Assembly: GCA_000004985.1 (NCBI GenBank) | Contig: GG739187.1 | Origin: Naegleria gruberi | Taxonomy: Eukaryota | Strand: one strand, 5' to 3' | DNA length: 4,404 nt | Shown here: piece after piece, positions 989 to 4,404 of the stretch | How the letters are laid out: every line of letters begins with the position of its first letter | Position numbering within the stretch: position 1 is the first letter of the stretch | The notes under the pieces: model-generated | Seen by the model: only the letters and a program-made list of their open reading frames with translations | Database searches by the model: none | What the model was told of the DNA's origin: nothing | Position numbers and translations under genes: made by a program

Positions 989-1256
989 GTAAGATATCTA
1001 GTTGACTAGAAATTATTTAAAATCAAATTAGAGGAGATATTTTAAATTATTCACAACAAGAATAGAATACTACAAGGATGAGGAACAAACCAAAGCCATC
1101 AAGAGCTTCCCAATTACCAAATCTACACAGGTTGGTGAAGCCCCTGAAAAAGGAAGCTCTAAACCTAACACTTTCAAGGTTGTGACAGCCGATAGAACAT
1201 TGTTTTTATCAGCATCAAACAGAGAACAAATGTTCGATTGGATTAAGAAGATTACA
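944..1256 (+). other. pleckstrin-homology (PH) domain, interrupted by the 43-nt intron
   Basis: Spliced sequence KGYLVKEGGNIHNWKRRYFKLFTTRIEYYKD....FKVVTADRTLFLSASNREQMFDWIKKI follows the PH consensus: basic G-x-L-x-K, then WKRRYFVL, then YYKD, then R-x-F-x-L-x-A-x-S-x-x-E-x-x-W-[IM]. This is established knowledge of the PH fold. Confidence 0.65.
989..1031 (+). other. spliceosomal intron, 43 nt, phase 0 (gtaaga....aattag)
   Basis: The donor GTAAGA lies immediately after ..NWK. Read-through gives VRYLVD then stop TAG at 1007-1009. The upstream reading frame is blocked by TAG at 1029-1031. Only the acceptor AG at 1030-1031 joins ..NWK to RRYFKLFTTRIEYYKD.., which restores the canonical PH-domain core WKRRYF. 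Phase is consistent: the first exon is 423 nt, exactly 141 codons. Confidence 0.65.
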
Positions 1257-1382: not shown

Positions 1383-2473
1383 NNNNNNNNNNNNNNNNNN
1401 NNNNNNNNNNNNNNNNNNNNNNNNNNNNNNNNNNNNNNNNNNNNNNNNNNNNNNNNNNNNNNNNNNNNNNNNNNNNNNNNNNNNNNNNNNNNNNNNNNNN
1501 NNNNNNNNNNNNNNNNNNNNNNNNNNNNNNNNNNNNNNNNNNNNNNNNNNNNNNNNNNNNNNNNNNNNNNNNNNNNNNNNNNNNNNNNNNNNNNNNNNNN
1601 NNNNNNNNNNNNNNNNNNNNNNNNNNNNNNNNNNNNNNNNNNNNNNNNNNNNNNNNNNNNNNNNNNNNNNNNNNNNNNNNNNNNNNNNNNNNNNNNNNNN
1701 NNNNNNNNNNNNNNNNNNNNNNNNNNNNNNNNNNNNNNNNNNNNNNNNNNNNNNNNNNNNNNNNNNNNNNNNNNNNNNNNNNNNNNNNNNNNNNNNNNNN
1801 NNNNNNNNNNNNNNNNNNNNNNNNNNNNNNNNNNNNNNNNNNNNNNNNNNNNNNNNNNNNNNNNNNNNNNNNNNNNNNNNNNNNNNNNNNNNNNNNNNNN
1901 NNNNNNNNNNNNNNNNNNNNNNNNNNNNNNNNNNNNNNNNNNNNNNNNNNNNNNNNNNNNNNNNNNNNNNNNNNNNNNNNNNNNNNNNNNNNNNNNNNNN
2001 NNNNNNNNNNNNNNNNNNNNNNNNNNNNNNNNNNNNNNNNNNNNNNNNNNNNNNNNNNNNNNNNNNNNNNNNNNNNNNNNNNNNNNNNNNNNNNNNNNNN
2101 NNNNNNNNNNNNNNNNNNNNNNNNNNNNNNNNNNNNNNNNNNNNNNNNNNNNNNNNNNNNNNNNNNNNNNNNNNNNNNNNNNNNNNNNNNNNNNNNNNNN
2201 NNNNNNNNNNNNNNNNNNNNNNNNNNNNNNNNNNNNNNNNNNNNNNNNNNNNNNNNNNNNNNNNNNNNNNNNNNNNNNNNNNNNNNNNNNNNNNNNNNNN
2301 NNNNNNNNNNNNNNNNNNNNNNNNNNNNNNNNNNNNNNNNNNNNNNNNNNNNNNNNNNNNNNNNNNNNNNNNNNNNNNNNNNNNNNNNNNNNNNNNNNNN
2401 NNNNNNNNNNNNNNNNNNNNNNNNNNNNNNNNNNNNNNNNNNNNNNNNNNNNNNNNNNNNNNNNNNNNNNNNN
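1383..2473. other. scaffold/assembly gap (1091 N)
   Basis: An uninterrupted run of N. Every ORF called across it (1182..2489 +, 1354..3078 -, 1365..2477 -) is meaningless inside this interval. Confidence 0.99.
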
Positions 2474-3045
2474 GCATTATTTACAGTAAATAGTTCTATA
2501 GTGTTTGAGTTTCTCCACAGTAAGTCTCTTTCATTACCACCTTCCTCAGAGAGAGACAAATCACCAAAATCATAGGAAGCTGTAATATCCTCACTAATAA
2601 AATCCAATGTATCTTGTCTCGTTAAATTCCACACAGCGAATGATTCATCAGCTTCCGATTTTAATTCAGTATTATTTTCCTTTAAAGTTTTTATATTATT
2701 TTCCTTCTGACCAATTTCATAGTCTAAAACTAGTTTCTTTGCCTTATATTCCTTAATGATGGCTCTCAGATTTTCCATCTCCCTCCGATCATTCTCAGAG
2801 AAACTACTATCAATTTGATCAGCACTAGCTGTTGCAACAGATTGATTAAGTGGAGCCTTATTCGTCGGTTTAAATGGTTTATATTCATCTGTTAAAAGTG
2901 AAGAAACCACAGATATCGTATCGCTCAATTCAGGTTGTGGATAATTAGCTCCAGCACCAGATGATGATAAGAGTGAGGATAATTGAGCCTGTGGTTGGGA
3001 TGCTCCATATTGACTCGAGAATGAGGCTGACCTTAAATTCCTCAT
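2474..3045 (-). CDS. hypothetical protein, 5' complete and 3' end lost in gap: N-terminal S/Q/A-rich low-complexity region, coiled-coil-like segment (ENLRAIIKEYKAKKLVLDYEIGQKENNIKTLKENNTELK) and acidic patch (DFISEDITASYDFGDLSLSEEGG)
   Basis: About 190 codons are open on the minus strand from the gap edge to ATG at 3043-3045. That ATG sits in ttataaaaaaaATGAGG, the same 13-nt context (taaaaaaaATGAG) as gene 1. A further upstream ATG at 3076-3078 would add MSMCFSIIIKK but lacks the A-tract context. No GT..AG intron is needed. Confidence 0.6.
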
Positions 3046-3052
3046 TTTTTTT
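3046..3052 (-). promoter_or_regulatory. A7 translation-initiation context of the minus-strand gene (ttataaaaaaaATGAGG on minus strand)
   Basis: T7 on the plus strand directly 3' of CAT (3043-3045). Confidence 0.4.
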
Positions 3053-3124
3053 ATAATGATAGAAAAACACATTGACATTGTTACTCTTTATCAATTCATT
3101 ATCATATTAGAATTTTTGATGTCT

Positions 3125-3138
3125 TTTAAGGTGGCACT
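3125..3138 (+). repeat. inverted-repeat arm A: tttaaggtggcact
   Basis: Exact reverse complement of 4063-4076, read directly from the sequence. Confidence 0.85.
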
Positions 3139-3158
3139 ATTGTTCAGTGTTCACCAAA

Positions 3159-3173
3159 TTTTTTTTAAAAAAA
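3159..3173. promoter_or_regulatory. T8A7 homopolymer tract (near-palindromic) about 115 bp upstream of the minus-strand gene ATG
   Basis: ttttttttaaaaaaa read directly. Poly(dA:dT) tracts are known nucleosome-excluding promoter elements in AT-rich eukaryotes. It also lies inside the putative TIR element, and a similar tract occurs at the same offset from the other terminus. Confidence 0.3.
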
Positions 3174-3691
3174 TACAAGTCAAAGATCAGTCACCTTCTT
3201 TGTTTTGCACTTCTTCTGTCCTTTGTGGCAATCATCACACAAATTGCACTGGATTTACAAGTACAACTCCTTTTCCAGTACAAGTACATGGTCTATTTTC
3301 TTCTTTGATGGTGGATTTCTTTTTCGGAATTAATAATTGTTGATTGTTAGTGGCTTTCCTTTATATTCAACAAACAATCCTTTAGCATCTTTCTTAGATA
3401 ATTTATTCATGAGGGGAAAATTTAGTGGTTTTATGAATGATTTGTGTATGTGAAATACTGCTAAATCCACTCTTCCTATCTTTTTGAAACAAACTTGCAC
3501 ATACTATTCAGAGACTCATTGGATTGAGTGTGAGCACTCTTTTTATAAGAATCTGCACTTTCAGCAAGTTCTGTAAATGTGAATCATCATTTTAAAAATC
3601 ATATCAGCATACAATTCCATTTTTAAAATAAATATAATTTTCGTTAGCACTTTTGATTACCTATTTTCTTAGAAGAGGAATAACATCACCA

Positions 3692-3706
3692 AAATGTAAT
3701 GCAGGA
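3692..3706 (+). repeat. direct repeat copy 1: aaatgtaatgcagga
   Basis: Exact 15-mer shared with 3877-3891. The flanks diverge immediately. Confidence 0.8.
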
Positions 3707-3876
3707 ACAAATACAACAACATCTCTAGACCATATGTTGTTCTTCTCTGGGTTTTATCTTGTTGCTGGTGCGTGCAAGAGGGTTGGAACTTTAATTTTTT
3801 TACCGTTACATTTCTGATAACAAATTCGATCAACGGAGGAATTTATTATTTATTCAATAACTAGTGATTTGTAAAG

Positions 3877-3891
3877 AAATGTAATGCAGGA
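3877..3891 (+). repeat. direct repeat copy 2: aaatgtaatgcagga (followed by a third partial tgtaat at 3893-3898)
   Basis: Exact 15-mer, 185 bp downstream of copy 1. A degenerate third version, aaatgtgaat, lies at 3575-3584. Confidence 0.8.
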
Positions 3892-4062
3892 TTGTAATAT
3901 ATACATCTCATAGGACATTTTCTCTTCGAATGATATCTCCAGAGTGGTAGCATTCCGTGGGAGAGGTTCTCAAACATTAACAATTTACTTCGTATGTCAG
4001 CAAGAAATTTTAAAAAGTTGGACCAAAAATTTTTAACAAAATTTCCTTTTATTGCGAGCTAC

Positions 4063-4076
4063 AGTGCCACCTTAAA
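4063..4076 (-). repeat. inverted-repeat arm B: agtgccaccttaaa (reverse complement = tttaaggtggcact)
   Basis: Exact reverse complement of 3125-3138. The arms are about 925 bp apart. Confidence 0.85.
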
Positions 4077-4166: not shown

Positions 4167-4404
4167 ATGCTTTCTTTTCTTGATAGGGCAGGCTTCTTTC
4201 ATAACAAGGCTGTGTTTGAACCACTACTCCGAAAACATGGTATCAAGGCTTCAAAGATAACTGCAATGATAAATGCAGAAATTGAATCGGAAGGTAATGA
4301 TAAAATTCTTCCATTTAGAAAAGTGAGAATTGCTGGAAAGAAGGAACCTATTTTAAAGCAACCATGTACTGGGTCGTTATTAGCAAATAATACTAATTTT
4401 ACAC
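4167..4404 (+). CDS. hypothetical protein, N-terminal fragment running off the window (MLSFLDRAGFFHNKAVFEPLLRKHGIKASKITAMINAEIESEGNDKILPFRKVRIAGKKEPILKQPCTGSLLANNTNFT..)
   Basis: ATG at 4167-4169 is preceded by eight A residues (4159-4166), like the other two starts. 79 codons are open to the window end, with consistent codon usage. It is absent from the ORF track only because it is truncated. Its product is not recognisable. Confidence 0.45.
   Translation, partial: MLSFLDRAGFFHNKAVFEPLLRKHGIKASKITAMINAEIESEGNDKILPFRKVRIAGKKEPILKQPCTGSLLANNTNFT

What the first reader, a model, noticed from the sequence alone, without database searches (positions are those of the whole stretch)
3125..4076. 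Divergent intergenic spacer is bracketed by a perfect 14-bp inverted repeat with TTAA on both sides, suggesting a TTAA-targeting MITE inserted in a bidirectional promoter
Read from the sequence: tttaaggtggcact at 3125-3138 and its exact reverse complement agtgccaccttaaa at 4063-4076. TTAA lies immediately outside a 9-bp core (GGTGGCACT / AGTGCCACC) on each side. Two unrelated 14-mers in about 1.1 kb would match as an inverted pair by chance with probability of order 1e-3, and the TTAA/TTAA symmetry is an extra coincidence. Established knowledge: TTAA target-site duplication flanking short TIRs is the hallmark of piggyBac-superfamily elements. A TA duplication with 10-bp TIR (Tc1/mariner-like) is an alternative reading of the same bases. 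The interior (942 bp) has no ORF above about 35 codons, as expected for a non-autonomous element. It has A/T tracts (aaattttttttaaaaaaa versus aaattttgttaaaaattttt) at near-identical subterminal offsets of about 26-27 nt from each end. With the element removed, the spacer between the two divergent ATGs would shrink from about 1120 bp to about 175 bp, similar to the short upstream region of gene 1. Inference: a recent insertion into a shared promoter, possibly donating the T8A7 tract and the 15-mer repeats as regulatory sequence.
Basis: partly seen in the sequence, partly recalled or inferred. Interest (0 to 1): 0.62.

Follow-up and report, generated by a model that had tools for sequence, protein, structure and literature searches.

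The report
Defective Kolobok transposon in Naegleria promoter
The 942-bp stretch between two back-to-back Naegleria gruberi genes is a real but ordinary jumping-gene insertion: a broken copy of a Kolobok-type DNA transposon that landed in a TTAA site, and a near-identical sequence from another sample still has that site empty.

Summary
The window is a whole 4404-bp scaffold of Naegleria gruberi. A metagenome contig (L001) is 97.3-97.6% identical on both sides. It carries the same two divergent genes with one TTAA where the window has TTAA + 942 bp (3130-4071) + TTAA. That is an exact empty site.

On the minus strand (3577-3296) the interior holds a frameshifted remnant of the C-terminal 150 residues of an N. 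gruberi transposase, P0004 (XP_002668207). P0004 aligns across the whole D-to-E core of the Repbase Kolobok-1/-2_NaeGru transposases. It also has the Kolobok signature of DDE, DxxH and a zinc cluster before the E.

The termini read TTAA|GG...CC|TTAA, which is the Kolobok pattern and not the piggyBac one. Transposase-bearing relatives share the terminus GGTGGCACTATTG(T) at three different TTAA sites (L002, L003, L104). A further relative (L102) has a similar 16-nt terminus flanked by TTAA.

Verdict: this is a polymorphic insertion of a non-autonomous, internally deleted Kolobok element in the middle of a 176-bp bidirectional promoter. It was wrong about the superfamily. MITE status and any regulatory effect are not shown. 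It is a new member of a known kind, of modest interest.

The parts
3126..3129 (.). Left copy of the TTAA target-site duplication
   Evidence: Both blastn alignments to the empty-site contig L001 end on the single TTAA at L001 1041-1044.
3130..4071 (-). The inserted element, 942 bp: a non-autonomous, internally deleted Kolobok-superfamily DNA transposon. Its own 5'->3' direction, that of the transposase remnant, is the window's minus strand.
   Evidence: Absent from L001, whose flanks are 97.3-97.6% identical. The termini are shared with transposase-bearing elements L002, L003 and L104.
3130..3145 (+). Terminal inverted repeat at the element's 3' end: GGTGGCACTATTGTTC. The first 9 nt pair perfectly with the other end, and 13 of 16 pair overall.
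   Evidence: The first 14 nt are identical to both ends of L003 and to the left ends of L002 and L104.
3293..3295 (-). Stop codon of the transposase remnant, one codon short of the natural stop of P0004
   Evidence: The translation ...SEKEIHHQRRK* matches the P0004 C-terminus ...SEKEIHHQRRRK.
3296..3577 (-). Degraded 3' part of a Kolobok transposase gene, equivalent to P0004 residues 490-640. It is read in different frames across frameshifts and has several deletions. It keeps the codon of the third catalytic residue (E510, about 3515-3517) but lacks D301, D383, DxxH and the zinc cluster.
   Evidence: tblastn of P0004 gives 3577-3479 with 33/34 identical, 3476-3348 with 44/89 identical, and 3361-3296 with 12/22 identical. 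Many more distant relatives hit 3577-3479 as well.
3578..4055 (-). 5' internal part of the element with no detectable homology. It is presumably the 5' subterminal or untranslated region of the parent element, or filler DNA.
   Evidence: No tblastn or blastn match to P0004, to 152 relatives, or to L002-L004. No Pfam hit.
3692..3706 (+). First copy of the 15-nt direct repeat AAATGTAATGCAGGA inside the element
   Evidence: A further shared ACATCTC lies 11-12 nt downstream of each copy (read).
3877..3891 (+). Second copy of the 15-nt direct repeat
4056..4071 (-). Terminal inverted repeat at the element's 5' end: GGTGGCACTGTAGCTC on the minus strand
   Evidence: This variant resembles the 16-nt perfect TIR GGTGGCGCTGTACTCG of element L102.
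4072..4075 (.). Right copy of the TTAA target-site duplication
3043..3045 (-). Start codon of gene 2, a coiled-coil protein (NAEGRDRAFT_76852; MRNLRSAS...), 80 nt from the insertion site
4167..4169 (+). Start codon of gene 3, a peptide deformylase homologue (MLSFLDRAG...), 91 nt from the insertion site
   Evidence: The full-length orthologue in L001 hits Pfam Pep_deformylase at 3.6e-27.

Best explanation
Window 3130-4071 is a non-autonomous, internally deleted DNA transposon of the Kolobok superfamily. It inserted into a TTAA in the middle of the roughly 176-bp bidirectional promoter between a coiled-coil gene and a peptide deformylase gene of Naegleria gruberi. Shown here: the insertion is absent from a near-identical haplotype or strain, the TTAA is duplicated, the ends are GG...CC inverted repeats shared with transposase-bearing relatives, and the interior carries a frameshifted C-terminal remnant of a Kolobok-type DDE transposase. 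Inferred from what is known of DDE cut-and-paste transposons: the element cannot make a transposase because it lacks about 490 residues, including two of the three catalytic acids. It was therefore moved in trans by a full-length relative such as P0004, which would bind the GGTGGCACT... termini. That enzyme would make a 4-nt staggered cut at TTAA, join the element ends, and leave gap repair to duplicate the TTAA. The insertion leaves 80 nt upstream of gene 2 and 91 nt upstream of gene 3. Whether expression of either gene changed is unknown.
For: 1. Empty site. L001 aligns to both flanks at 97.3-97.6% identity, with one TTAA in place of TTAA + 942 bp + TTAA.
2. Coding remnant. tblastn of P0004 (N. 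gruberi XP_002668207, 641 aa) matches the minus strand 3577-3296 in different frames, 33/34 identical in the best block, and runs to the natural stop.
3. P0004 is a Kolobok transposase. BLASTP gives 92 bits over the entire D-to-E core of Repbase Kolobok-2_NaeGru, 88 bits to Kolobok-1_NaeGru and 63 bits to Kolobok-2_TV. Its Pfam family PF20700 hits bona fide Kolobok cores at 1e-50 to 1e-53. D301, D383, H407, H455, C463 and E510 are invariant, and D404 and H460 nearly so, across 24 relatives. This is the DDE + DxxH + zinc-cluster-before-E layout described for Kolobok in PMC9587614.
4. Termini. TTAA|GG...CC|TTAA fits the published Kolobok definition of TTAA duplication with 5'-RR...YY-3' ends, stated to differ from piggyBac (PMC9587614; PMC6004289).
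5. Mobility of the family. L002 and L003 are 99.76% identical over 2084 bp, have different flanks, and both are bounded by TTAA+GGTGGCACTATTG(T). L104 is a third site. L102 and L004 are further relatives with TTAA+GG termini.
6. Kolobok is recorded in Naegleria (PMC9587614).
Against: No second copy of this particular 942-bp element was found, so its copy number and any current mobility in N. gruberi are unknown. The N. gruberi assembly could not be searched. The DNA of the P0004 scaffold was not available, so it is not shown that a P0004-type full-length element carries these termini. The elements that do share the termini encode a protein only 34-45% identical to P0004. The 480 nt at the 5' side have no detectable homology to anything. 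No THAP domain, usual in animal Kolobok transposases, was found in P0004 or its relatives. The empty site alone cannot separate a TTAA duplication from a TA one, because TTAA is a palindrome. That distinction rests on the 11 TTAA junctions in related elements. L001 comes from a metagenome, so whether it is a strain or an allele is inferred from identity alone.
Confidence: 0.92

Rival explanations
1. A piggyBac-superfamily MITE: short TIRs and a TTAA duplication made by a piggyBac transposase.
For: The TTAA duplication is real and piggyBac also targets TTAA (PMC9587614).
Against: The termini are GG...CC. PMC9587614 states that 5'-RR...YY-3' termini distinguish Kolobok from piggyBac. The internal remnant is homologous to a Kolobok-type transposase. 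No piggyBac transposase family was reported for P0004 or its relatives in the Pfam scans, which listed hits up to E = 1 for P0004 and 0.01 for the relatives.
Confidence: 0.02
2. A Tc1/mariner-like element with a TA duplication and 10-bp TIRs AGGTGGCACT.
For: Because TTAA is a palindrome, the empty site in L001 fits a TA duplication with A...T element ends just as well (reasoned).
Against: All 11 junctions of six related elements read TTAA, including the outer T and A, which would be arbitrary flanking bases under a TA model. The coding remnant and the full-length relatives are Kolobok-type, not DD34E/D.
Confidence: 0.02
3. The element is ancestral at this locus and L001 lost it, either by precise excision or by deletion between the two TTAA copies. 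The polymorphism would then reflect loss rather than a new insertion.
For: Presence and absence alone do not give direction, and no outgroup locus could be fetched (P0003 was not retrievable). From my own knowledge, precise TTAA-restoring excision is known for piggyBac.
Against: The empty site is seamless and the 176-nt spacer is in line with the short upstream region of gene 1 in this window. Precise excision has not been established for Kolobok, as far as the papers read here go. The element would still be a Kolobok transposon, so this changes only the history.
Confidence: 0.04
4. A chance inverted repeat or long-range stem in a native 1.1-kb intergenic spacer, or an assembly artefact of this small gapped scaffold.
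For: A perfect inverted pair of at least 14 nt arises in 1.2% of shuffled spacers. The scaffold is only 4.4 kb, contains an N run, and carries an odd gene model.
Against: The repeat coincides to the base with the limits of a 946-bp presence/absence difference. It also matches the termini of independent transposase-bearing elements. Rfam and tRNA scans find no RNA gene.
Confidence: 0.01

Closest known systems
Kolobok-1_NaeGru and Kolobok-2_NaeGru (Repbase Kolobok families of Naegleria gruberi; transposase cores printed in Data S5 of PMC9587614)
   Same: Same host species and same superfamily. P0004, the nearest full-length relative of the window's remnant, aligns over their whole D-to-E core at 88-92 bits. 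It shares the ISxDxRxSxxRNxxECT, GASK, SFxHDxD, LDxNH, AYxxH...NHxxC and NES motifs.
   Different: Identity is only about 30-33% at the protein level, so this is a different family within the superfamily. The window copy is a 942-bp deletion derivative with no catalytic core. The nucleotide consensus and termini of the Repbase families were not available for comparison.
Xenopus T2-MITE / XKol elements (Kolobok superfamily; PMC6004289)
   Same: Non-autonomous Kolobok derivatives with a TTAA target and purine-purine termini (AGGRR there, GGTGG here), mobilised in trans.
   Different: T2-MITEs are short, very high-copy and non-coding. This element is 942 bp, keeps a transposase pseudogene fragment, and has unknown copy number. 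Xenopus Kolobok transposases carry a THAP domain, and none was detected in this protist clade.
piggyBac-superfamily MITEs
   Same: TTAA target-site duplication and short terminal inverted repeats.
   Different: The terminal dinucleotides are GG...CC, the pattern said to set Kolobok apart from piggyBac. The associated transposase belongs to the PF20700/Kolobok family, not to piggyBac.
Internally deleted non-autonomous elements such as Ds derived from Ac (hAT superfamily; from my own knowledge)
   Same: Both ends are kept, most of the transposase gene is deleted, and the rest of the gene decays. Movement depends on a full-length relative.
   Different: A different superfamily, with a different target duplication (8 bp for hAT, TTAA here).

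Membership tests
Kolobok superfamily (DNA transposon) | [quoted passage not shown] | tested here: met
   The empty site L001 has one TTAA where the window has two flanking the 942-bp insert. TTAA is present at all 11 junctions of six related elements: the window, L002, L003, L104, L004 and L102. The definition is from PMC9587614 and PMC6004289.
Kolobok superfamily (DNA transposon) | Termini 5'-RR ... YY-3' | tested here: met
   The element begins GG (3130-3131) and ends CC (4070-4071). The same holds in L002, L003, L004, L102 and L104.
Kolobok superfamily (DNA transposon) | Transposase homologous to known Kolobok DDE transposases, with a C/DxxH motif and a zinc finger between that motif and the catalytic E | tested here: met
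   The window holds only the C-terminal remnant, 33/34 identical to P0004 in its best block. P0004 scores 92 and 88 bits against the Kolobok-2 and Kolobok-1_NaeGru cores. PF20700 hits curated Kolobok cores at 1e-50 or better. D301, D383, D404xxH407, H455/H460/C463 and E510 are conserved across 24 relatives. The layout is as described in PMC9587614.
Kolobok superfamily (DNA transposon) | N-terminal THAP DNA-binding domain (usual in animal Kolobok transposases, not universal) | tested here: not met
   No THAP hit in P0004 or in 10 relatives. A THAP-looking string on the minus strand of the element (about 3830-3664) gets no Pfam support and lacks the third Cys. The papers read here give THAP as usual, not as defining.
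Kolobok superfamily (DNA transposon) | Nucleotide match to a curated Kolobok consensus (Repbase or Dfam) | not testable with these tools
   No repeat library is available. Only protein cores printed in a paper supplement could be used.
piggyBac superfamily | TTAA target-site duplication | tested here: met
   This feature is shared with Kolobok and so does not discriminate.
piggyBac superfamily | piggyBac-type termini (CCC...GGG, from my own knowledge) and a piggyBac-type transposase | tested here: not met
   The termini are GG...CC, the pattern that PMC9587614 says distinguishes Kolobok from piggyBac. The coding remnant and its relatives are Kolobok-type.
Tc1/mariner superfamily | TA target-site duplication with arbitrary bases outside the TA, and a DD34E/D transposase | tested here: not met
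   The outer T and A are conserved at all 11 junctions. The transposase is Kolobok-type. The empty site alone is ambiguous because TTAA is a palindrome.
MITE (structural class) | Short (typically under about 800 bp), no coding remnant, many near-identical copies | tested here: inconclusive
   The element is 942 bp and carries a transposase pseudogene fragment. Copy number could not be measured because the N. gruberi genome was not searchable. No protein resembling its ORFs other than P0004 exists among 5.8 billion clusters.

The most novel reading that the evidence does not exclude
This Kolobok lineage is still active in the Naegleria gruberi complex. P0004, which has an intact DDE triad, DxxH motif and zinc cluster, would be its working transposase, recognising GGTGGCACT termini that are conserved across several elements from different samples. 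The presence/absence polymorphism here would be a recent event that split a 176-bp bidirectional promoter and changed expression of the peptide deformylase or coiled-coil gene on one haplotype. If so, this would be a native TTAA-specific cut-and-paste system that could be developed as an insertional tool for Naegleria.
Probability: 0.2. Interest if true: 0.5.

Novelty: new member of a known kind. Interest (0 to 1): 0.3.

Why it matters
The result turns a suspicious inverted repeat into a fully documented transposon insertion, with exact limits, a target duplication, an empty allele, a superfamily and a likely source transposase. Three practical consequences follow.

- The 1.1-kb 'intergenic spacer' should be annotated as a Kolobok element and not mined for native promoter signals.
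- The insertion probably explains why this 4.4-kb scaffold stayed apart from the main 297-kb scaffold, which carries a 98% identical copy of gene 2. This is an inference.
- The locus offers a natural pair of alleles, a 176-nt promoter against a promoter split by 946 bp, for asking how much upstream sequence Naegleria genes need.

Kolobok is a little-studied superfamily. A clade with termini conserved across several elements from different samples, and near-identical copies at different sites, points to recent activity. Beyond that this is routine transposon biology.

Tried and rejected
1. THAP domain. On the minus strand (about 3830-3664) the string CYQKC..LLHAP..W..PALHF..VIPLL looks like a THAP finger, which would suit Kolobok. 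Pfam gives nothing even at E = 10, the third Cys is missing, and neither P0004 nor its relatives have THAP. I rejected it as a chance resemblance.

2. Fetching N. gruberi DNA. The look-up of encoding contigs has no record for P0001, P0002, P0003 or P0004. So I could not read the main-scaffold allele, the P0004 scaffold or an outgroup.

3. The search for related loci with P0004 in JGI metagenomes found no relatives.

4. Scan of JGI metagenomes for TTAAGGTGGCACTATTG. It gave 71 hits, about 50 of them from Ga0209365 and Ga0209452. There the 17-mer lies inside an unrelated repeat with conserved sequence on both sides, after a (GTA)n tract, and no Kolobok transposase is nearby. This was uninformative.

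5. The same scan of 596 Gb of GTDB genomes gave 26 hits scattered over unrelated bacteria, which is the chance background.

6. Word-based protein search with P0004 found only itself. The exhaustive search was needed to find its 240 relatives.

7. Rfam and tRNA scans of the window found nothing.

8. Nucleotide comparison of the element with L002-L004 showed no similarity beyond the termini.

9. Literature. Only one paper in the library mentions both Naegleria and Kolobok. Nothing was found for the accessions of the source assemblies.

Full report
**What the window is.** The sequence is eukaryotic. Gene 1 (ATG at 566) needs a 43-nt GT-AG intron (989-1031) to give an intact PH domain (Pfam 5e-18). 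Gene 2 lies on the minus strand (ATG at 3045-3043) and gene 3 on the plus strand (ATG at 4167). They are divergent and separated by 1121 nt. A protein search with the N-terminus of gene 2 returned two Naegleria gruberi predicted proteins. P0002 (XP_002668238) sits on a contig of exactly 4404 nt, so the window is a whole small scaffold. P0001 (XP_002671592) is 98% identical and sits on a 297-kb scaffold.

**The observation.** The 14-nt perfect inverted pair is at the stated coordinates, and its 9-nt core occurs nowhere else in the window. It extends imperfectly to 21 nt at 86%. Dinucleotide-preserving shuffles give a perfect inverted pair of at least 14 nt somewhere in the spacer in 1.2% of trials. 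That is unusual but not decisive.

**The decisive result: an empty site.**
- The 90%-identity cluster of P0001 has a second member, P0005, from an ENA metagenome assembly.
- Its 2614-nt contig, L001, could be fetched.
- L001 carries the same two divergent genes.
- blastn aligns L001 1041-1697 to window 3129-2474 (97.6%) and L001 710-1044 to window 4404-4072 (97.3%).
- The two alignments overlap on a single TTAA. L001 reads gatgtcttTTAAatatatg where the window reads gatgtcttTTAA-GGTGGCACT...AGTGCCACC-TTAAatatatg.

So 3130-4071 (942 bp) plus one TTAA is present in the window and absent from L001. The limits fall exactly at the inverted repeat. The spacer between start codons is 176 nt in L001.

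**What the insert is.** I concatenated the six-frame ORF pieces of the interior and searched them against 5.8 billion protein clusters. The single hit was P0004, an N. gruberi predicted protein of 641 aa (XP_002668207, NAEGRDRAFT_54899) on a 3659-nt scaffold. tblastn places P0004 residues 490-640 on the minus strand in three blocks:
- 3577-3479, with 33/34 residues identical.
- 3476-3348, in another frame, with several deletions.
- 3361-3296, sharing the frame of the first block, up to a stop one codon short of P0004's own.

More distant relatives also hit 3577-3479. The interior is therefore the decayed 3' end of a transposase gene. The remaining 480 nt on the 5' side match nothing.

**Which superfamily.** Pfam calls P0004 'Mutator-like transposase' (PF20700, 3.4e-9). 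The literature gives TTAA duplication with 5'-RR...YY-3' termini as the definition of Kolobok, states that these termini distinguish it from piggyBac, and lists Naegleria among its hosts (PMC9587614; PMC6004289). The element reads TTAA|GG...CC|TTAA.

Data S5 of PMC9587614 prints the D-to-E cores of Repbase Kolobok transposases, including Kolobok-1_NaeGru and Kolobok-2_NaeGru. The tests were as follows.
- BLASTP of P0004 against these cores gives 92 bits over the full length of Kolobok-2_NaeGru, 88 bits to Kolobok-1_NaeGru and 63 bits to Kolobok-2_TV. E-values are 4e-19 to 4e-9 at a notional database of 1e9 residues.
- PF20700 itself hits curated Kolobok cores at 1e-50 to 1e-53. The Pfam name is therefore misleading, and the family is in practice Kolobok.
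- An exhaustive HMMER search found 240 relatives of P0004.
- In an alignment of 24 of them, D301, D383, H407, H455, C463 and E510 are invariant, and D404 and H460 nearly so. This is a DDE triad with a DxxH motif and a zinc cluster before the E, the arrangement said to separate Kolobok from MuDR, P and hAT.

The window's remnant keeps only E510. It cannot encode an active enzyme.

**Other elements with the same ends.**
- Contigs encoding P0155/P0006 (34-45% identical to P0004 over the aligned blocks) were retrievable. L002 and L003 are bounded by TTAAGGTGGCACTATTG(T) and its reverse complement, as 17-18 nt perfect TIRs.
- The two elements are 99.76% identical over 2084 bp but have different flanks on both sides.
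- L104 shows a third junction in yet another flank.
- P0155 lacks P0004 residues of about 325-468. These elements are therefore also defective, yet sit at several sites.
- L102 is a contig that begins and ends with TTAA+GGTGGCGCTGTACTCG. That terminus resembles the window's right end, GGTGGCACTGTAGCTCG.
- L004 has TTAA+GGATGTAGTT.

All 11 junctions seen read TTAA. The empty site alone cannot separate a TTAA duplication from a TA one, because TTAA is a palindrome. The constant outer T and A across independent insertions favour TTAA.

**Mechanism.** Shown: a polymorphic, TTAA-flanked insertion of a TIR element that carries a Kolobok transposase remnant. Inferred: mobilisation in trans by a full-length Kolobok DDE transposase that recognises the GGTGGCACT termini, a staggered cut at TTAA, and repair that duplicates the TTAA. 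The insertion leaves 80 and 91 nt upstream of the two start codons. Any effect on expression is untested.

**Limits.**
- The N. gruberi assembly could not be searched. Copy number, the state of the main-scaffold allele and the termini of the P0004 element are therefore unknown.
- Scans of JGI metagenomes and GTDB genomes for the terminus gave only an unrelated repeat and chance hits.
- I could not check whether the element is already in Repbase.

**Verdict.** Its core interpretation, a TTAA-targeting non-autonomous element in a bidirectional promoter, is right. The superfamily is Kolobok, not piggyBac or Tc1/mariner, and 'MITE' is not established. This is a new member of a known kind, well documented and of modest interest.

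Noticed in passing
window 1383-2473: A run of 1091 N separates the 3' parts of gene 1 and gene 2. The NCBI gene model P0002 (234 aa) jumps across it and ends in antisense of gene 1 (...VLGLELPFSGASPTCVDLVIGKLLMALVCSSSL), so that model is probably an artefact of the gap. L001 shows the true continuation of gene 2 and a small ubiquitin-family gene downstream (Pfam 2.2e-7).
   Followed up: partly
window 989-1031: A 43-nt GT-AG intron in the PH-domain gene. Splicing joins ...NWK to RRYFKLF... and restores a full PH domain (Pfam 5e-18).
   Followed up: partly
window 3692-3706 and 3877-3891: A perfect 15-nt direct repeat, AAATGTAATGCAGGA, occurs 185 nt apart inside the element's 5' half. A further shared ACATCTC lies 11-12 nt downstream of each copy. 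These could be subterminal transposase-binding repeats or an old internal duplication.
   Followed up: no
window 3046-3056 versus L001 1113-1123: The T tract directly upstream of the gene 2 start codon is T8 in the window and T7 in L001. This 1-nt difference changes which upstream ORF a prokaryote-style gene caller extends into (MSMCFS... against MIKSNN...).
   Followed up: no
L002 140-2498, L003 105-2259, L104 162-end: These elements encode a 525-aa protein that lacks the segment matching P0004 residues of about 325-468 (second catalytic D, DxxH, zinc cluster). Even so, they occur as 99.76% identical copies at three different TTAA sites. Defective copies of this family therefore seem to have spread recently in their unidentified host. 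Their 5' subterminal regions differ by a 200-nt indel.
   Followed up: partly
L005-L075 (about 50 contigs of JGI metagenomes Ga0209365 and Ga0209452): The 17-mer TTAAGGTGGCACTATTG recurs inside a high-copy repeat, always preceded by (GTA)n GCAATGAATATTA and followed by CAGTATATGCTGCAGGACCACCGTACAAATGTCAC. No Kolobok transposase is nearby. Whether this is coincidence, or a very old Kolobok end nested in another repeat, was not resolved.
   Followed up: partly
P0012 (N. gruberi XP_002681476, 707-kb scaffold): This is a second, divergent Kolobok-type transposase gene in the same genome, 31% identical to P0004 (PF20700 at 1.3e-18). Counting the two Repbase families, N. gruberi holds at least three or four Kolobok lineages.
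   Followed up: no
window 4167-4404 and L001 3-947: Gene 3, next to the insertion, is a peptide deformylase homologue (Pfam Pep_deformylase, 3.6e-27).
   Followed up: partly
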